Source of the DNA: an uncultured Candidatus Poseidoniales archaeon
GTDB lineage: Archaea > Thermoplasmatota > Poseidoniia > Poseidoniales > Thalassarchaeaceae
DNA length: 64,000 nt
Direction of reading: 5' to 3'
Assembly (NCBI GenBank): GCA_902511005.1
Contig: CABXDN010000006.1
Coordinates: 7,846-71,845 of the forward strand
The position numbers and the translations under genes were made by a program. Below are positions 6,562-17,011 of the stretch, one piece after another. A model generated the notes under the pieces. It did no database searches. It was not told the DNA's origin and worked only from the letters and a program-made list of their open reading frames with translations. Within the stretch, counting starts at the first letter, position 1, and every line of letters begins with the position of its first letter.

Positions 6562-8580
6562 TCATTCGCGTCGGGTTGAGTATATGAGACCGATAGTTAG
6601 GGCTAAAATAGTCAAAACAATACTCGACCCAGGTAAAAAACCAGTTTCCTTAGAGTTTTCAACGGGAAGAGTAACCATATCTTCGAATAAATGAGAATTA
6701 TTTACCAACACAACAACTTCGTTACATTTCATTGAAATATCGCAACCAATAACTTTCACTTCATGGATTCCTTCATCCCATAATCCAAAATTTATTATTG
6801 GAGTACTCCAAGAATCTCCTGAAACAGATATACTGCCAGCAGATAGATTATCTATGGATAATGAAAATAGGACCTCTTCTCCGTCTGGGTCGCTAAATTG
6901 ACCTTGTGCCTTCCAAGTATCTACTTCCCATCCATATTCAGAAAGAGTGATCGTTGGTGGCGAACTTTCTTTCATTATATCCAGATAAAATATCCTATTC
7001 ACTGGATATATATTTGCGCCATAAATTTCAATCCATAGATTAACTAAGCCTGGATTTAATCCAACTGATTCGACCATTAGTGTTGTATCGGATATTATTG
7101 TGGTTGTTTCAACTGTAGCCATATTAATATTTCCAGTTTGTGTGAAACTATAATCTAAATTTAATTCGGACCATCCCTGGTTTAGCTCAATTTTTATCGG
7201 ATGTGGGCTTTGGAGAATACTGGAATCTGTCGATACAGAAATCGGAATTCCAAGGTGCCATGTCCTATTTCCAGAACTCTGTCCGGCCACATCAATCGCC
7301 TCACAGGTAACGTCCACAACCCCCTCACTGGGTACAATTCCTGAGAATGATTTATCAGGTCTTTGGAGTATATTCGCAGAATCATCAGCATCACAATTAA
7401 TCTCTAATTGAGTAAGTGGTTTTTCATCGGTAAACCATGACGAAACACTCTCCCATTCGGCCCATACTATTTCTCCACTTTCTAATGAAGGAAACCATGA
7501 TTCATCAAGAGGCGCATTTTCGGTCCAAGCTGGTGGTTCATCAATTGGTATAGGCGCAATTGTAAAATCTGCAAAAATATCTTCTCCACTAGGCCAAATA
7601 CTTTCACTTCTATGAGGGAATAGAGTATACTTGATATTTTCATTATTTTCGAATGTATACGTGGATGAGCCGTCTCCTACGCATGTCCCTCTTAGTGGGG
7701 CATCTTCATGAGTCATAGGCTCGAATTCAACATCTCTTCCTTCGCATTCTTCCCACATGTCTAATCTTAAATCTGGATTACTAGGGAATGTGAAATCTAG
7801 AACAGCATTGGTCATATTAGACGCATTAAATGCGAGAGTAAATTCCTCCCCTTGGGCCATATTAGGTATAACCATCGTAGCATTCATCCATAGTTCAAGT
7901 CTACATTCATCTACTCCCTCAGAAGTTTCAATCAAGATATTGCAATCTCTTTCTGAATTGGGATAAACCGGAACTTCTTCACAATCATTACTAGATCCTA
8001 TAGCAGTGCAATCTCTTATGTCTGCATGATTAGAAGGGACTAAATTCCACTCTTCTATTATGACGCCATTATCTTGCCAAGTAGCATTCTTCCAATCTAA
8101 CCCTACGCCTCCCCTATGGGGTGAAGACTCTCTCAATCCTATTCGAGTCATCGCATATTCTATACATTCTGAAGCAACAGCCTCAACGGCTGATTTTTCG
8201 TCAGTTGAAATCCAACCGTCCCCTCCACTAGGATACAACTCTTCCAAATATGAATCAAGTTTTTCTCTCAACAAATCAACACTGCTGCCATTTATCCATG
8301 CTCTCGCTTCTACCTCTGCAGAATTCCAGTCGTCATCGACTACAATGTCAAAATGTGCATGGGTGTAAGGTAGAATATCTTCGAAAGTAATAGAACTGCA
8401 CCTATCTTCTATACTCCCACCTCCACCTCCCAGTTGATTTTTAGTTATTATTTCTGTATCTAGTTGATTATCTTTATTTTCTAATGGAAAAAACATTGAA
8501 AACATAAGAATAACGCAGATTGTCGTCAAAATTCCCGTTCGTCCAGAATAACTCACAATATATCGAGAAGGTATACTCAC
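6562..8580 (-). CDS. secreted/surface protein of unknown function (N-terminal signal anchor, C-terminal LPGSS-TM-RRE tail)
   Basis: N-terminal hydrophobic segment ILTTICVILMFSMFF. C-terminal GFLPGSSIVLTILALTIGLIYSTRRE. No catalytic motifs recognised. Confidence 0.5.
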   Translation of the reverse strand: MSIPSRYIVSYSGRTGILTTICVILMFSMFFPLENKDNQLDTEIITKNQLGGGGGSIEDRCSSITFEDILPYTHAHFDIVVDDDWNSAEVEARAWINGSSVDLLREKLDSYLEELYPSGGDGWISTDEKSAVEAVASECIEYAMTRIGLRESSPHRGGVGLDWKNATWQDNGVIIEEWNLVPSNHADIRDCTAIGSSNDCEEVPVYPNSERDCNILIETSEGVDECRLELWMNATMVIPNMAQGEEFTLAFNASNMTNAVLDFTFPSNPDLRLDMWEECEGRDVEFEPMTHEDAPLRGTCVGDGSSTYTFENNENIKYTLFPHRSESIWPSGEDIFADFTIAPIPIDEPPAWTENAPLDESWFPSLESGEIVWAEWESVSSWFTDEKPLTQLEINCDADDSANILQRPDKSFSGIVPSEGVVDVTCEAIDVAGQSSGNRTWHLGIPISVSTDSSILQSPHPIKIELNQGWSELNLDYSFTQTGNINMATVETTTIISDTTLMVESVGLNPGLVNLWIEIYGANIYPVNRIFYLDIMKESSPPTITLSEYGWEVDTWKAQGQFSDPDGEEVLFSLSIDNLSAGSISVSGDSWSTPIINFGLWDEGIHEVKVIGCDISMKCNEVVVLVNNSHLFEDMVTLPVENSKETGFLPGSSIVLTILALTIGLIYSTRRE

Positions 8581-8627
8581 ATCATTATATCGTTTTTATA
8601 TTCATAGATTTTTCGAATATAATCACT

Positions 8628-8647
8628 AATTTAGGTGAGCCTAAATT
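8628..8647. promoter_or_regulatory. palindromic operator candidate AATTTAGG-TGAG-CCTAAATT (site 1)
   Basis: Perfect 8+8 inverted repeat in the divergent intergenic region between the 6562..8580 (-) and 8706..10355 (+) genes. The core TTTAGG-N4-CCTAAA recurs at 8673, 12745 and 16952. Confidence 0.55.
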
Positions 8648-8672
8648 TGATATACTCCATCCTACTCCGAAG

Positions 8673-8688
8673 TTTAGGGCGACCTAAA
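8673..8688. promoter_or_regulatory. palindromic operator candidate TTTAGG-GCGA-CCTAAA (site 2)
   Basis: Ends 17 nt upstream of the ATG at 8706. Same core as the other three sites. Confidence 0.55.
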
Positions 8689-8705
8689 GATACGGAGATA
8701 GAAAT

Positions 8706-15831: not shown

Positions 15832-15870
15832 ATTTCCCCTCTCATTTTAAGTAACCATGTGATTTTATGT

Positions 15871-16941
15871 TTATTCAAAATAAGCCTGAATTCCAGGTAC
15901 ATTGGATATAGCTGCTGCGTAAGTCCCCAAGTGATCTTCGGAGTTAGCAACAACCATTCCATCCGTATTCAATAAGTCATTGAGGATTTCTCTTCCTTCA
16001 TCATCATCTCCAAGTTTTGCCAATCCTTCTTGAACAATAATAACGGTTTCTTCATCCATCACTTCTGAATTATACATGGCAGGGTGGCTGGGAGCTTGCC
16101 CAAATGCAGGTAACATTACATATTCATCAATATCTAAGCACCAATCGTAGCGATCTTCTCCAGTACAGTATGAATTTACTACTGAATCTTTAGCCAGTGC
16201 CACATCTCCCGTTCCATCAGATAGGCACCTAAGTGCTCCTTTGTAGGAGGAGTAAGGCGTTCCTCCCTCAGGGATACTAGAATCATCTGAGAAGAAACCA
16301 TACACTGTATCTCTTAGAGACTCAATTTCATTTTCATCACCTACAACTTCTGCATATCCATTACCTATCAAATAGCCCATAGGGATGAGCATTCCTGCAC
16401 TTTTTAGCCATCCTGTATGACAAGATTTTTTTCCTTCCATTAGTGCAAATGGATCTGTAGTGTCATCATCATCGAGGTAAGCTTCCGCCATGTCCGAGTC
16501 TGCTTTTACCCATGCAGTTGCATTGTAGTATACTCTACCATCTGCTTTCTCTTCAGCAGCCAAGACATCTAATCCGTATACTTCCCATGCTAGCCATGCC
16601 GCTGCACCATCCATGAATGCAATATCTGCGTTACCTAGTCTGACAGCTTCAATTGCAGCTCCCGAATCAGAGACTGGAAATATCTCAACATCCATTCCTG
16701 TTATGGTACTAAGTTTATCCGCTAAATGTTGTGGATTTTTATCCCAAATTAAGTACGTATCTTGAACTTCAAAAGCAACAATAAGGCAATTATCTTGATC
16801 GTCACATTCTTCATAATTAACGTCAAAAATCATGTATATAGTCCCTGCACATAGTAGAACTCCTACCATCAATATTGCCTTATTTTTTACTGCCCAGTCT
16901 GTAACCGTAGCCGCCTTCATACCTTTACCGAGTAATAACAT
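15871..16941 (-). CDS. monolobal transferrin-like substrate-binding protein (membrane-anchored)
   Basis: FMDGAAAW, VYYNATAWVKADS, GKKSCHTGWLKSAGMLIPMGYL, YKGALRCLSDGTGDVA, CLDIDEY and APSHPAMYN are all close to lobe 1 of the 10588..12687 protein and to transferrin motifs. N-terminal TM anchor. The start may be M8 at 16920. Confidence 0.78.
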   Translation of the reverse strand: MLLLGKGMKAATVTDWAVKNKAILMVGVLLCAGTIYMIFDVNYEECDDQDNCLIVAFEVQDTYLIWDKNPQHLADKLSTITGMDVEIFPVSDSGAAIEAVRLGNADIAFMDGAAAWLAWEVYGLDVLAAEEKADGRVYYNATAWVKADSDMAEAYLDDDDTTDPFALMEGKKSCHTGWLKSAGMLIPMGYLIGNGYAEVVGDENEIESLRDTVYGFFSDDSSIPEGGTPYSSYKGALRCLSDGTGDVALAKDSVVNSYCTGEDRYDWCLDIDEYVMLPAFGQAPSHPAMYNSEVMDEETVIIVQEGLAKLGDDDEGREILNDLLNTDGMVVANSEDHLGTYAAAISNVPGIQAYFE

Positions 16942-16951
16942 ACAAATAATA

Positions 16952-16967
16952 TTTAGGGTGACCTAAA
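16952..16967. promoter_or_regulatory. palindromic operator candidate TTTAGG-GTGA-CCTAAA (site 4)
   Basis: Lies 10 nt upstream of the listed start at 16941 (31 nt upstream of the alternative ATG at 16920) of the minus-strand monolobal gene. Confidence 0.55.
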
Positions 16968-17011
16968 ACTATTAATGTTCAAGAATTTATTCAGATTTAT
17001 AAATTTATTAA

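What the first reader, a model, noticed from the sequence alone, without database searches (positions are those of the whole stretch)
8580..17011. Accessory island combining transferrin-fold binding proteins with a PhnCE-type ABC importer: candidate archaeal Fe(III) uptake system
- **Contents:** seven contiguous genes form a coherent extracytoplasmic capture and import set.
  - Cys/His-repeat lipoprotein (8706..10355).
  - Bilobal transferrin-like lipoprotein (10588..12687).
  - PhnC-like ATPase and PhnE-like permease, translationally coupled (12790..14627).
  - On the opposite strand, a PQQ-type dehydrogenase lipoprotein (14638..15831) and a monolobal transferrin-like protein (15871..16941).
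- **Shared control:** three of the four promoter regions carry the same palindrome.
- **Background:** PhnD-type periplasmic binding proteins are proposed in the literature as the evolutionary source of transferrin and algal phytotransferrin.
- **Why it matters:** here, proteins with eukaryote-like transferrin motifs are still physically wired to a PhnC/PhnE importer. That would be either a missing-link state or an unusual eukaryote-to-archaeon acquisition. I do not know of a described archaeal system of this kind.
Basis: partly seen in the sequence, partly recalled or inferred. Interest (0 to 1): 0.88.

Follow-up and report, generated by a model that had tools for sequence, protein, structure and literature searches.

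The report
Archaeal transferrin-type iron uptake regulon
Abundant marine archaea (Poseidoniales) carry a gene cluster, annotated until now as a phosphonate transporter, that looks like an iron-uptake system built from true transferrin-family and algal FEA1-type proteins under an iron-sensor operator, placing relatives of animal transferrin on a prokaryotic ABC importer.

Summary
All six genes are at the stated coordinates. A TTTAGG-N4-CCTAAA palindrome occurs four times in 64 kb, only in this cluster's promoter regions.

The iron interpretation is supported and extended:
- **Binding proteins:** both are transferrin-family. Their best solved-structure matches are transferrins (E 7e-25). The monolobal protein and the bilobal N-lobe keep the transferrin ligand set Asp/Tyr/Thr/Lys/Tyr/His. 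E. coli PhnD has other residues at the positions compared.
- **First gene:** the "Cys/His-repeat lipoprotein" is an FEA1-related lipoprotein, the algal low-iron family.
- **Operator:** the palindrome is conserved across Poseidoniales (148 sites in 80 loci, 146 upstream of cluster genes). In related contigs it sits before a divergent DtxR-family repressor gene with Fe-type metal-site residues (67 of 70 contigs).
- **Extra parts:** a 672-aa surface protein and a conserved RNA stem-loop also belong to the cluster.

The cluster is a core, syntenic Poseidoniales trait, not an accessory island. Recent acquisition from eukaryotes is not supported, because eukaryotic transferrins form one clade outside a basal archaeal grade.

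Iron binding is inferred, not shown. I found no paper describing this system. MGII literature lists "transport of phosphonates" as a core trait, probably this cluster.

The parts
6562..8580 (-). 672-aa membrane-anchored surface protein (N-terminal and C-terminal TM helices, acidic, 13 Cys), probably co-regulated with the cluster.
   Evidence: It has no Pfam or NCBIfam hit. Its family contains only Euryarchaeota/Poseidoniales 'hypothetical proteins'. It travels with the cluster in several different gene arrangements (40 of 80 loci). It shares the palindrome-bearing divergent promoter region with the FEA1 gene. The AF2 model has pLDDT 72.8, and Foldseek finds only generic tandem Ig/cadherin/FN3-like beta-sandwiches.
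8630..8645 (.). Operator copy 1 (TTTAGGTGAGCCTAAA), in the divergent promoter region between the 672-aa gene and the FEA1 gene
8673..8688 (.). Operator copy 2 (TTTAGGGCGACCTAAA), ending 17 nt before the FEA1 ATG
   Evidence: In orthologous loci the pair of sites is spaced 43-44 bp.
8706..10355 (+). FEA1-related lipoprotein. Residues ~15-297 form the FEA1 domain. Residues 304-510 form six ~34-aa 'GCYNxxSH...C' Cys/Tyr/His repeats.
   Evidence: Pfam Fea1 PF07692 scores 89.6 bits. NCBIfam NF038033 FEA1_rel_lipo scores 393 bits against cutoff 250. NCBI names orthologues 'FEA1-related lipoprotein' in Thalassarchaeaceae and Thermoplasmatota. The repeats are mapped.
10411..10511 (+). Conserved RNA stem-loop (11-bp closing helix around a variable interior) in the FEA1-bilobal spacer. 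It is probably a 3' end, stability or intercistronic element.
   Evidence: The spacer folds at -69.8 kcal/mol with z = -6.25. In the closing helix, 121 of 121 cells are paired, 5 pairs show compensatory changes, and 0 of 500 shuffles reach the covariation score. The G-U pairs are valid only on the sense strand. The element occurs only just 3' of FEA1 (or of biTf in L074), in 20 of 169 sources. It has no Rfam match.
10588..12687 (+). Bilobal transferrin-family lipoprotein. The N-lobe has an intact D-Y-T-K-Y-H site. The C-lobe is degenerate (N-S-S-D-D-D) and carries one inserted CYD..H..C module.
12745..12760 (.). Operator copy 3 (ATTAGGGTCGCCTAAA), ending 30 nt before the phnC ATG at 12790
   Evidence: The spacing is the same in orthologous loci.
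12790..13740 (+). PhnC-like ABC ATPase. In this genome it is interrupted by a unique in-frame 232-nt hydrophobic insertion (13129-13360).
13737..14627 (+). PhnE-type ABC permease, translationally coupled to phnC
   Evidence: TIGR01097 scores 229 bits against cutoff 216.7. The ATGA overlap is confirmed.
14638..15831 (-). GSDH-family (soluble PQQ-type glucose/sorbosone dehydrogenase-like) beta-propeller lipoprotein, co-transcribed downstream of the monolobal gene
   Evidence: PF07995 scores 61 bits. The closest solved structure is E. coli YliI, 2g8s. It is adjacent to monoTf on the same strand in 57 of 67 loci.
15871..16941 (-). Monolobal transferrin-family binding protein, membrane-anchored, with an intact D-Y-T-K-Y-H site
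   Evidence: AF2 pLDDT is 88.5, and the top 29 Foldseek hits are transferrins.
16952..16967 (.). Operator copy 4 (TTTAGGGTGACCTAAA), ending 11 nt before the monolobal gene's ATG
   Evidence: In 71 orthologous sites the palindrome typically ends 11-12 nt before the ATG.

Best explanation
This is an iron-repressed Fe(III) uptake regulon of Poseidoniales (Marine Group II archaea).

**Proposed mechanism:**
1. A DtxR/IdeR-family repressor, encoded outside this window, binds the TTTAGG-N4-CCTAAA operators that overlap the start regions of four transcription units when iron is replete. It releases them under iron shortage.
2. The induced proteins all sit on the outer face of the single membrane.
3. 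An FEA1-related lipoprotein with Cys/Tyr/His repeats, and a large Ig-like stalk protein, probably concentrate or present iron at the cell surface.
4. A monolobal and a bilobal transferrin-family binding protein capture Fe3+ with a synergistic carbonate. They use the transferrin ligand set: Asp, Tyr, Tyr and His, plus Thr and Lys for the anion.
5. The binding proteins hand the iron to a PhnE-type permease driven by a PhnC-type ATPase.
6. A GSDH-type propeller lipoprotein co-transcribed with the monolobal protein probably supplies an extracytoplasmic redox or ligand-processing step.

**Shown:** gene content, family membership, ligand conservation, operator conservation, and the physical link between the operator and a DtxR gene.

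**Inferred:** Fe3+ as the ligand, repression by iron, and the roles of FEA1, GSDH and the stalk protein.
For: **(1) Transferrin identity**
- phmmer against PDB sequences gives only transferrins in the top 60 (ovotransferrin 6.9e-25). No PhnD structure appears there.
- PF00405 scores are above threshold.
- The AF2 model has pLDDT 88.5, and its top 29 Foldseek hits are transferrins.
- In the representative library, every named non-archaeal protein among the stronger matches is a eukaryotic transferrin, from ichthyosporeans, Bryopsis, amphioxus and a crinoid.

**(2) Ligands**
- Human transferrin D63, Y95, T120, R124, Y188, H249 align to D, Y, T, K, Y, H in the monolobal protein and in the bilobal N-lobe.
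- The same DYTKYH signature is the commonest among 121 eukaryote-type lobes (45; a further 27 are DYTRYH).
- E. coli PhnD has Gly/Tyr/His/Asp at the Asp63, Tyr95, Tyr188 and His249 positions.
- The C118-C194 disulfide cysteines are invariant in the seven archaeal sequences of alignment A3.

**(3) The PhnD equivalog fails**
- Scores are 62.7 and 34.6 bits against a cutoff of 261.1.

**(4) The FEA1-related lipoprotein is in the same regulon**
-.

**(5) Operator**
- 4 of 4 window sites are in the cluster, with 0.12 expected by chance.
- Across 80 Poseidoniales loci there are 148 sites, and 146 lie within about 100 nt upstream of cluster genes.
- A rescan finds 149 exact sites against 3 in shuffled sequence. 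There is no excess of 1-mismatch sites and almost no compensatory change, so this is a protein-read DNA site.

**(6) Regulator**
- In L077 a DtxR-family gene (Fe_dep_repress + Fe_dep_repr_C + FeoA) diverges from the SBP-PhnC-PhnE operon, with three operators between them.
- In 67 of 70 metagenome contigs with a homologue, the operator lies within 250 nt upstream of the regulator gene. All 199 sites fall before DtxR or cluster genes.
- 74 of 74 regulators carry Met/Cys/Glu/His at the DtxR M10/C102/E105/H106 positions. By my knowledge of the DtxR/MntR family, this is the Fe-selective pattern.
- Two further relatives outside Poseidoniales have DtxR-family genes directly upstream of their SBP-ABC operons: L087 (archaeal) and L082/L083 (taxon unknown).

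**(7) No phosphonate catabolism**
- None of the 31 window ORFs scanned with Pfam encodes a phosphonate catabolic or Pho-type function.
Against: - No biochemical or expression data exist. Fe3+ binding and iron-dependent repression are inferred.
- PF12974 (Phosphonate-bd) scores higher than PF00405 on both binding proteins. The permease passes the PhnE equivalog. Foldseek places PtxB and AioX only slightly behind transferrins.
- No DtxR gene lies in the window, or within 10 kb of the cluster in 79 of the 80 genome loci. The direct adjacency is seen in the MGIII-labelled contig L077 and in untyped metagenome contigs.
- Some DtxR-family members sense Mn.
- A glycerophosphodiester phosphodiesterase gene often sits next to the monolobal gene. 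In bacteria that enzyme class is a phosphorus-scavenging function. It lies upstream of the operator here, so it is not obviously in the regulon.
- The bilobal C-lobe has lost the site.
- In this particular genome phnC carries a 72-aa hydrophobic insertion that might disable the ATPase.
Confidence: 0.72

Rival explanations
1. It is what the databases call it: a PhnCDE-type importer of phosphonate, phosphite or phosphate. The transferrin resemblance would then only reflect shared ancestry of the fold.
For: - PF12974 gives the higher Pfam score on both binding proteins (136.4 and 72.0 bits).
- The PhnE equivalog is passed, and PhnC is the best ATPase match.
- JGI names orthologues 'ABC-type phosphate/phosphonate transport system substrate-binding protein'.
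- Tully 2019 (PMC6336850) lists phosphonate transport as a core MGII trait.
- PtxB and AioX are close structural matches.
- A GDPD gene is a frequent neighbour.
Against: - The PhnD equivalog and the TIGR01098 subfamily model both fall below their cutoffs.
- The residue positions compared carry the transferrin set, not the PhnD set.
- Sequence searches rank transferrins far above PhnD-type structures.
- The regulon contains an FEA1 protein and is tied to a DtxR-family regulator.
- No phosphonate catabolic or Pho genes were seen in the scanned window ORFs or in the gene tables of the related loci inspected.
Confidence: 0.07
2. It is a metal-regulated importer for a cation other than iron (for example Mn or another hard trivalent metal), or for an iron chelate rather than free Fe3+/carbonate.
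For: - The DtxR family includes Mn sensors such as MntR, ScaR and SloR, which appear among the regulator's PDB matches.
- The L087 regulator is short and lacks the FeoA domain, like MntR.
- The Nitrosopumilus relative sits next to CbtA/CbtB cobalt-transporter genes.
- The GSDH partner and the FEA1 repeats hint at processing of a complexed substrate.
Against: - The Asp/Tyr/Tyr/His plus carbonate-anchor set is the Fe3+ site of transferrins and is fully kept.
- 74 of 74 Poseidoniales-type regulators have Met and Cys at the positions that distinguish Fe-type DtxR/IdeR from Mn-type MntR (read with family knowledge).
- FEA1 is a low-iron-inducible family (PMC7676907).
Confidence: 0.12
3. Evolutionary rival: the archaeal transferrin-type genes were acquired from a eukaryote and then attached to a resident PhnCE transporter. 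They would not represent the prokaryotic stock from which transferrins arose.
For: - The named non-archaeal proteins among the stronger matches are eukaryotic transferrins at 33-37% identity, and the archaeal signature DYTKYH equals the commonest eukaryotic one.
- Marine protists and algae share the habitat.
- Internal support in the archaeal grade of the tree is weak (15-40%).
Against: - Eukaryote-type lobes form one clade (bootstrap 93, n=120). No archaeal branch is nested inside it, apart from one ichthyosporean lobe mis-binned by my Cys-count proxy.
- The prokaryotic proteins branch between that clade and the Heimdallarchaeota and PtxB-like binding proteins (bootstraps 98 and 99).
- The family is spread over MGIIa, MGIIb, an MGIII-labelled contig and other Thermoplasmatota, always as an SBP of an ABC operon.
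- The Cys-free outgroups already carry D-Y-T-Y-H.
Confidence: 0.15

Closest known systems
Eukaryotic transferrins (serum transferrin, ovotransferrin, lactoferrin, melanotransferrin; Pfam PF00405)
   Same: - The family is the same by sequence (E about 1e-25 to ovotransferrin) and by fold.
- The Fe3+ ligands Asp/Tyr/Tyr/His and the anion-anchoring Thr and Lys/Arg sit at the same positions.
- The C118-C194 disulfide cysteines are kept.
- There is a bilobal member with one degenerate lobe, which from my knowledge also occurs in melanotransferrin and insect transferrins.
   Different: - The archaeal proteins are membrane-anchored binding proteins of an ABC importer. They are not soluble carriers taken up through a receptor and endocytosis.
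- They have only 4-7 cysteines per lobe, against 8-23 in the eukaryote-type lobes.
- A monolobal form exists.
- They are controlled by a DtxR-type operator.
PhnCDE phosphonate/phosphite ABC transporters (PhnD, PtxB, HtxB, AioX, ArrX binding proteins; PF12974)
   Same: - The binding proteins belong to the same PF12974 superfamily.
- The permease passes the PhnE equivalog, and the ATPase is PhnC-like.
- The operon logic is the same (SBP-ATPase-permease).
- The ligand-contacting positions are homologous.
   Different: - The residues at those positions are the transferrin set, not the P-oxyanion set.
- The PhnD equivalog model is failed by a wide margin.
- The regulon is tied to a metal-dependent DtxR-type regulator, and no catabolic partner genes were found.
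Bacterial ferric-ion ABC uptake systems (FbpABC, SfuABC, HitABC, FutABC; FbpA is often called 'bacterial transferrin')
   Same: The proposed mechanism is the same: a binding protein captures Fe3+ with Tyr/His/carboxylate ligands plus an oxyanion and delivers it to an ABC permease, under an iron-responsive repressor.
   Different: - FbpA and FutA belong to a different binding-protein family and resemble transferrin only by fold and convergence (from my knowledge, not tested here). The archaeal proteins are direct PF00405 homologues.
- The transporter here is PhnCE-type.
- The host is an archaeon without an outer membrane.
Algal FEA1 / diatom ISIP2a phytotransferrin (PF07692), and the proposal of McQuaid et al. 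2018 that transferrin and phytotransferrin derive from phosphonate-binding periplasmic proteins (as summarised in PMC7676907)
   Same: - The first gene of the cluster is a bona fide FEA1-family member.
- The cluster physically joins an FEA1 protein, transferrin-type proteins and a PhnCE importer, as that evolutionary proposal would predict.
   Different: - The protein is archaeal, lipid-anchored, and extended by six Cys/Tyr/His repeats.
- A profile-profile comparison here found no detectable similarity between the FEA1 domain and the transferrin/PhnD lobes beyond the signal peptide. I could not confirm a common origin of the two families.
DtxR/IdeR regulons (operator consensus TTAGGTTAGGCTAACCTAA, recalled from memory)
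   Same: - The regulator has the same three-domain architecture and Met/Cys/Glu/His primary-site residues.
- It is autoregulated from a divergent promoter.
- The operator half-sites TTAGG/CCTAA match the outer half-sites of the classical box.
   Different: - The operator is 16 bp with a 4-bp spacer, not the 19-bp box.
- The regulon seen so far is confined to this transporter cluster and the regulator gene itself.
- The operators end 11-30 nt upstream of the start codons, positions compatible with archaeal repression by promoter occlusion.

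Membership tests
Transferrin family (PF00405) | Profile HMM match above the curated threshold | tested here: met
   PF00405 scores 93.1 bits (bilobal) and 63.7 bits (monolobal) against a cutoff of 20.3. PDB phmmer hits to transferrins reach 6.9e-25.
Transferrin family (PF00405) | Fe3+ ligands Asp63, Tyr95, Tyr188, His249 (human N-lobe numbering) | tested here: met
   D/Y/Y/H are present in the monolobal protein and in the bilobal N-lobe. The bilobal C-lobe has N/S/D/D at these positions, so it is degenerate.
Transferrin family (PF00405) | Synergistic carbonate site (Thr120, Arg124, N-terminus of helix 5) | tested here: met
   Thr is kept and Arg is replaced by Lys. Lys also occurs in the commonest signature among the eukaryote-type lobes (45 of 121). 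The motif K-S-A-G aligns with R-S-A-G.
Transferrin family (PF00405) | Two-domain type II binding-protein fold with the conserved C118-C194 disulfide | tested here: met
   The AF2 model has pLDDT 88.5, and its top 29 Foldseek hits are transferrins. Both cysteines are invariant in the seven archaeal sequences of alignment A3 (C174 and C239 of the monolobal protein).
Transferrin family (PF00405) | Reversible Fe3+/carbonate binding | not testable with these tools
   This needs purified protein, for example a charge-transfer band near 465 nm and competition titrations.
PhnD phosphonate-binding protein (TIGR03431 equivalog) | Equivalog HMM score above cutoff | tested here: not met
   Scores are 62.7 and 34.6 bits against a cutoff of 261.1. 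The TIGR01098 subfamily model scores 83.6 and 45.8 against 112.05.
PhnD phosphonate-binding protein (TIGR03431 equivalog) | Phosphonate-contacting residues of E. coli PhnD at the homologous positions | tested here: not met
   In the alignment of the relative P0231 to 3p7i, PhnD has Gly/Tyr/His/Asp where this family has Asp/Tyr/Tyr/His. The identity of the PhnD contact residues is from my memory of the 3P7I literature.
PhnD phosphonate-binding protein (TIGR03431 equivalog) | Encoded with PhnC and PhnE | tested here: met
   The genes are adjacent in the window. PhnE lies within 8 kb of a transferrin-type gene in 38 of 80 loci, and in 25 of the 39 loci of at least 15 kb.
PhnD phosphonate-binding protein (TIGR03431 equivalog) | Linked to phosphonate catabolism (C-P lyase, phosphonatase) or to Pho control | tested here: inconclusive
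   None appears among the 31 window ORFs scanned or in the gene tables of the related loci L081-L087. Whole genomes were not searched.
PhnCE ABC importer | PhnE permease equivalog and PhnC ATPase equivalog | tested here: inconclusive
   PhnE TIGR01097 scores 229 bits against 216.7, which is met. PhnC TIGR02315 scores 134.7 against 266.1, which is not met, although it is the best ATPase match. The window's PhnC carries an extra 72-aa insertion.
FEA1 / ISIP2a family (PF07692; NCBIfam NF038033 FEA1-related lipoprotein) | Profile HMM match above the curated threshold, and a lipoprotein signal | tested here: met
   PF07692 scores 89.6 bits against 25. NF038033 scores 393.4 bits against 250. The lipobox is A-G-C23.
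DtxR/IdeR-controlled regulon | Palindromic operator in target promoters and in the regulator's own promoter | tested here: met
   146 of 148 sites lie before cluster genes. The operator lies within 250 nt upstream of the DtxR homologue in 67 of 70 contigs, and three copies sit in the divergent region in L077.
DtxR/IdeR-controlled regulon | Regulator present in the same genome, and metal-dependent binding to the operator | not testable with these tools
   No DtxR homologue is in the 64 kb window. Whole-genome data and EMSA or footprinting are needed.
FbpABC/FutABC ferric ABC transporters | FbpA/FutA-type binding protein and FbpB/FutB-type permease | tested here: not met
   The binding proteins hit PF12974 and PF00405, and the permease hits PhnE. 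This is a functional analogue only.

The most novel reading that the evidence does not exclude
The Poseidoniales/Thermoplasmatota proteins are surviving members of the prokaryotic stock from which eukaryotic transferrins arose. The transferrin iron site would then have been invented in archaeal ABC-transporter binding proteins: the D-Y-T-Y-H set is already present in the Cys-free Nitrosopumilus and Heimdallarchaeota relatives. It would later have been exported to eukaryotes. Transferrin-type and FEA1/phytotransferrin-type proteins would first have worked together in a single DtxR-controlled iron regulon. A corollary is that 'phosphonate transport', counted as a core trait of one of the most abundant archaeal groups in the surface ocean, is really iron acquisition.
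Probability: 0.35. Interest if true: 0.92.

Novelty: new variant of a known kind. Interest (0 to 1): 0.8.

Why it matters
- **Marine biogeochemistry:** Poseidoniales are among the most abundant planktonic archaea, and how they get iron is essentially undescribed. If this cluster imports iron, a trait currently counted in the marine phosphorus cycle ("phosphonate transport", Tully 2019) belongs to the iron cycle. The operator plus the DtxR gene would then give a ready-made marker set for iron stress in metatranscriptomes.
- **Evolution of transferrin:** the cluster supplies a testable intermediate for the origin of transferrin. These are proteins with the full transferrin iron/carbonate site and the conserved disulfide, still acting as binding proteins of a PhnCE-type importer. 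They branch outside a monophyletic eukaryotic transferrin clade.
- **Link between two eukaryotic iron families:** the cluster places an FEA1/phytotransferrin-family protein and transferrin-family proteins in the same prokaryotic regulon.

Tried and rejected
- **Palindrome as an RNA hairpin or IRE-like element:** rejected. The half-sites are invariant, the spacer varies, 1-mismatch sites show no excess (24 against 37 in shuffled sequence), and among imperfect sites only 9 changed pairs are compensated against 460 unpaired.
- **Accessory island:** rejected on uniform GC, housekeeping flanks and conserved synteny.
- **Recent transfer from eukaryotes:** not supported by the lobe tree.
- **Common origin of the FEA1 and transferrin/PhnD domains:** hhalign aligned only the signal peptides, so this is not confirmed here.
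- **DtxR or other regulator in the window:** tblastn with three DtxR-type and three neighbouring regulator proteins found nothing in the window. The only hit among the 80 genome loci was in L077. The one transcription factor seen in the window is an HTH_10 protein at 39230-39880 with no link to the cluster.
- **Bacterial promoter/terminator scan:** uninformative for an archaeon.
- **Rfam search of the region at E<=1:** no match.
- **FEA1 protein against PDB sequences:** no relative.
- **Model of the 672-aa protein:** only generic Ig/cadherin-like hits.
- **Origin of the phnC insertion:** no other copy found.
- **Operator in high-GC relatives (L081, L082, L087):** I saw no clear TTAGG-N4-CCTAA site.
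- **Literature:** ten full-text searches found no description of an archaeal transferrin/FEA1/PhnCE iron system.
- **First search for related loci attempt:** the alignment was too divergent and the call failed.

Full report
**Observation**

Profile searches give these assignments:
- **8706-10355:** an FEA1-related lipoprotein (Pfam Fea1 89.6 bits; NCBIfam NF038033 393 bits against cutoff 250).
- **10588-12687 and 15871-16941:** both pass PF12974 Phosphonate-bd (136.4 and 72.0 bits) and PF00405 Transferrin (93.1 and 63.7 bits, cutoff 20.3). Both fail the PhnD equivalog (62.7 and 34.6 bits against 261.1).
- **13737-14627:** passes the PhnE equivalog (229 against 216.7).
- **12790-13740:** an ABC ATPase closest to PhnC, but below cutoff.
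- **14638-15831:** a GSDH-family propeller.

phnC and phnE overlap by ATGA. The FEA1, bilobal and GSDH proteins have lipoboxes. The monolobal protein has an N-terminal membrane helix. All the extracytoplasmic proteins are very acidic, with pI about 4.1.

The palindrome is real. TTAGG-N4-CCTAA has four exact copies in 64 kb, with 0.12 expected by chance, and all four are in the cluster's promoter regions. Two lie before FEA1, one before phnC and one before the monolobal gene.

**Are the binding proteins transferrins or PhnD?**

Sequence evidence:
- Against all PDB sequences, the 60 best hits of the monolobal protein are all transferrins (ovotransferrin 6.9e-25), with no PhnD-type structure among them.
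- A more distant relative from Nitrosopumilus (P0231) shows the opposite pattern. It matches PtxB at 3e-17 and E. coli PhnD at 6.5e-07, and transferrins only marginally.

Ligand evidence:
- Aligned with the human transferrin N-lobe, the iron ligands Asp63, Tyr95, Tyr188 and His249 and the carbonate anchor Thr120 are identical in the monolobal protein and in the N-lobe of the bilobal protein. Arg124 is Lys.
- The resulting signature, DYTKYH, is also the commonest among 121 eukaryote-type lobes retrieved (45; another 27 are DYTRYH).
- The bilobal C-lobe is degenerate (NSSDDD), and C-lobes of related bilobal proteins are degenerate too.
- In the alignment to E. coli PhnD, the positions matching Asp63, Tyr95, Tyr188 and His249 hold Gly, Tyr, His and Asp. 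The sites are homologous but the chemistry differs.
- The two cysteines matching the human C118-C194 disulfide are invariant in the seven archaeal sequences of alignment A3.

Structural evidence:
- An AlphaFold model built on a 15-sequence alignment is confident (pLDDT 88.5).
- Foldseek ranks 29 transferrin entries first (5e-15), and PtxB and AioX follow at about 1e-13. The fold alone does not discriminate; sequence and site residues do.

**Distribution and synteny**
- A scan of one genome per GTDB species found 420 stretches encoding relatives. The 80 best are all Poseidoniales (MGIIa, MGIIb and one MGIII-labelled contig), apart from two contigs filed under bacterial MAGs. Those two show the same archaeal synteny and are probably mis-binned.
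- tblastn mapping of the window's proteins shows a conserved modular cluster. monoTf-GSDH is adjacent in 57 of 67 loci. FEA1-biTf-PhnC-PhnE is a recurrent block.
- The unannotated 672-aa protein at 6562-8580 moves with the cluster in several arrangements.
- GpsA and a short GDPD gene are frequent flanks.
- GC content is uniform, and the window's flanks are housekeeping genes: AdoHcy hydrolase, GpsA and archaeal shikimate genes.

This is a core trait of the lineage, not an accessory island.

**The operator and its regulator**
- Across the 80 loci (1.18 Mb) the palindrome occurs 148 times in 75 loci. 146 sites lie within about 100 nt upstream of the starts of monoTf (71), FEA1 (30), phnC (29), the 672-aa gene (12) or biTf (4).
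- A rescan finds 149 exact sites against 3 in shuffled sequence, and 1-mismatch sites show no excess (24 against 37).
- The positions flanking the searched core extend the palindrome to TTTAGG/CCTAAA (T in 143 of 149, A in 143 of 149). The 4-nt spacer varies. Among imperfect sites, only 9 changed pairs are compensated against 460 unpaired.
- That pattern fits a dimeric DNA-binding protein, not an RNA hairpin.
- In the window the sites end 11-30 nt before the start codons, a position suited to archaeal repression by blocking polymerase recruitment. This last point is inference.

The regulator emerged from related loci:
- Two relatives outside Poseidoniales, L087 (archaeal) and L082/L083 (taxon unknown), have a DtxR-family gene directly upstream of their SBP-ATPase-permease operon.
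- In the Poseidoniales contig L077, a DtxR homologue with the full Fe_dep_repress + Fe_dep_repr_C + FeoA architecture diverges from the transferrin-type SBP-PhnC-PhnE operon. Three operator copies lie in the roughly 120-nt spacer.
- A metagenome scan with this regulator returned 80 contigs. In 67 of the 70 with upstream sequence, the operator lies within 250 nt of the regulator's start, usually in three copies.
- All 199 sites in those 442 kb lie before the regulator or before cluster genes.
- All 74 full-length regulators have Met, Cys, Glu and His at the positions of DtxR Met10, Cys102, Glu105 and His106. From published work on DtxR/MntR selectivity, as I recall it, this marks Fe-type rather than Mn-type sensors.
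- No DtxR gene is in the window itself, so it must lie elsewhere in this genome.

**Other parts of the cluster**
- **FEA1 repeats:** the FEA1 protein ends in six ~34-aa repeats of the form GCYNxxSH-(16)-C. One such module is inserted in the bilobal C-lobe. NCBI already names orthologues 'FEA1-related lipoprotein'.
- **FEA1 versus transferrin lobes:** a profile-profile comparison of the FEA1 domain with the transferrin/PhnD lobes aligned only the signal peptides.
- **GSDH protein:** its nearest solved relative is E. coli YliI, a PQQ-type sugar dehydrogenase. Its role here is unknown.
- **672-aa protein:** it belongs to a Poseidoniales-only family of hypothetical proteins and models as a stalk of Ig/cadherin-like sandwiches.
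- **FEA1-biTf spacer:** this 232-nt region lacks the operator but folds unusually well (z = -6.25). Its 11-bp closing helix is kept in 11 of 11 sequences from divergent lineages, with five compensated pairs and sense-strand G-U pairs. The element occurs only just 3' of FEA1 (or of biTf in L074), in 20 of 169 sources. It has no Rfam match.

**Evolution**

In the representative library, every named non-archaeal protein among the stronger matches is a eukaryotic transferrin, often multi-lobed. The sources are Ichthyosporea and Corallochytrium, the green alga Bryopsis, amphioxus and a crinoid. The named prokaryotic relatives are all archaeal: Poseidoniales, Thermoplasmatota, Heimdallarchaeota and Nitrosopumilus.

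I built a neighbour-joining tree of 160 lobes (280 columns, 100 bootstraps) and rooted it on the PtxB-like proteins:
- Heimdallarchaeota branch next (bootstrap 98).
- A clade of all cysteine-bearing transferrin-type proteins follows (bootstrap 99).
- Within it, the eukaryote-type lobes form one clade (bootstrap 93), and the archaeal proteins form a basal, poorly resolved grade.

This argues against a recent eukaryote-to-archaeon transfer and fits a prokaryotic origin of transferrin. The method is simple and the grade is weakly supported, so I treat that conclusion as provisional. The Cys-free outgroup proteins already carry D-Y-T-Y-H. The Nitrosopumilus gene has a related palindrome (TTAG-N6-CTAA) about 22 nt before its start.

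**Comparison with what is known**
- Functionally, the closest analogue is the bacterial FbpABC/FutABC ferric ABC system.
- By descent, the binding proteins are transferrin-family members within the PhnD superfamily, attached to a PhnCE-type transporter.
- The idea that transferrin and phytotransferrin derive from phosphonate-binding proteins is published (McQuaid 2018, as summarised in PMC7676907).
- Database names such as 'PhnD/SsuA/transferrin family substrate-binding protein' and 'FEA1-related lipoprotein' show that curators have seen the similarities.
- I found no paper that describes the archaeal system, its operator or its DtxR link. The MGII literature lists 'transport of phosphonates' as a core trait, probably this cluster (PMC6336850).
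- The library lacks most subscription papers, so novelty is uncertain.
- I classify the finding as a new variant of a known kind.

**Verdict**

The iron interpretation is the best-supported one (confidence about 0.7) and is now backed by regulatory evidence. 'Accessory island' and 'eukaryotic acquisition' are not supported. Biochemical proof of Fe3+ binding and expression data are the missing decisive tests.

Noticed in passing
window 13129-13360 (inside phnC, 12790-13740): A unique in-frame 232-nt segment replaces about 16 nt that are present in close relatives. It encodes about 72 very hydrophobic residues between the Q-loop region and the LSGGQ signature. All 40 other Poseidoniales PhnC genes examined have normal length, including the locus whose monolobal protein is 97% identical (L001). 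No other copy of the segment exists in the window or loci. It is either a strain-specific insertion that may disable or membrane-tether the ATPase, or an assembly artefact.
   Followed up: partly
window 10411-10511 (FEA1-biTf spacer, 10356-10587): A conserved stem-loop: an 11-bp closing helix with 5 compensated pairs and no broken pair in 11 sequences. It is found only just downstream of FEA1 (or of biTf in one locus), in 20 of 169 sources, and matches no Rfam family. It may be a transcript-end, stability or intercistronic control element of the regulon. The compensatory changes come from only two or three lineages.
   Followed up: partly
window 9615-10235 (FEA1 residues 304-510) and 12493-12546 (biTf residues 636-653): A short 'GCY(N/D)xxxH ... 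C' module (two Cys, a Tyr and a His per ~34 aa) is repeated six times at the FEA1 C-terminus and inserted once in the bilobal C-lobe. It has no Pfam match. It may be an extra metal-binding or disulfide-knot unit shared between two proteins of the regulon. Most FEA1 orthologues are shorter (about 413 aa), so repeat number varies.
   Followed up: partly
window 5704-6558 (- strand): A 284-aa protein with two RanBP2-type zinc ribbons (PF00641, below the domain threshold but E 2e-08) separated by long 'NRGRDN' Arg/Gly/Asn/Asp repeats. This is a eukaryote-like zinc-finger architecture in an archaeon.
   Followed up: no
L084 6160-9706 (Nitrosopumilus contig); L085/L086 (Heimdallarchaeota): Cys-free 'PhnD' proteins of Nitrosopumilus and Heimdallarchaeota also carry Asp/Tyr/Thr/Tyr/His at the transferrin positions. 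The Nitrosopumilus gene has a related palindrome (cTTAGcttatcCTAAg) about 22 nt before its ATG. It follows two paralogous small winged-helix regulator genes and CbtA/CbtB cobalt-transporter genes. These 'phosphonate' binding proteins may also be metal-related.
   Followed up: partly
L003 (PARX01000028.1, 'Rhodobacteraceae bacterium SAT2') and L038 (NYYT01000035.1, 'Pedosphaera sp. ARS72'): Two contigs filed under bacterial MAGs carry the archaeal cluster with the same synteny (GpsA-GDPD-monoTf-GSDH...) and 66-87% identity to the window's monolobal protein. They are probably mis-binned Poseidoniales contigs.
   Followed up: no
L077 12658-13584: In the MGIII-labelled Poseidoniales contig, the gene after phnE encodes a 308-aa protein with a weak, sub-threshold match to HmuY, a haem-binding lipoprotein family (22.3 bits against cutoff 27).
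   Followed up: no
P0119 / P0514 (Euryarchaeota archaeon, 1156-1175 aa): A three-lobed archaeal transferrin-type protein in which all three lobes keep the full DYTKYH signature. Lobe multiplication has therefore happened in archaea as well as in eukaryotes.
   Followed up: no
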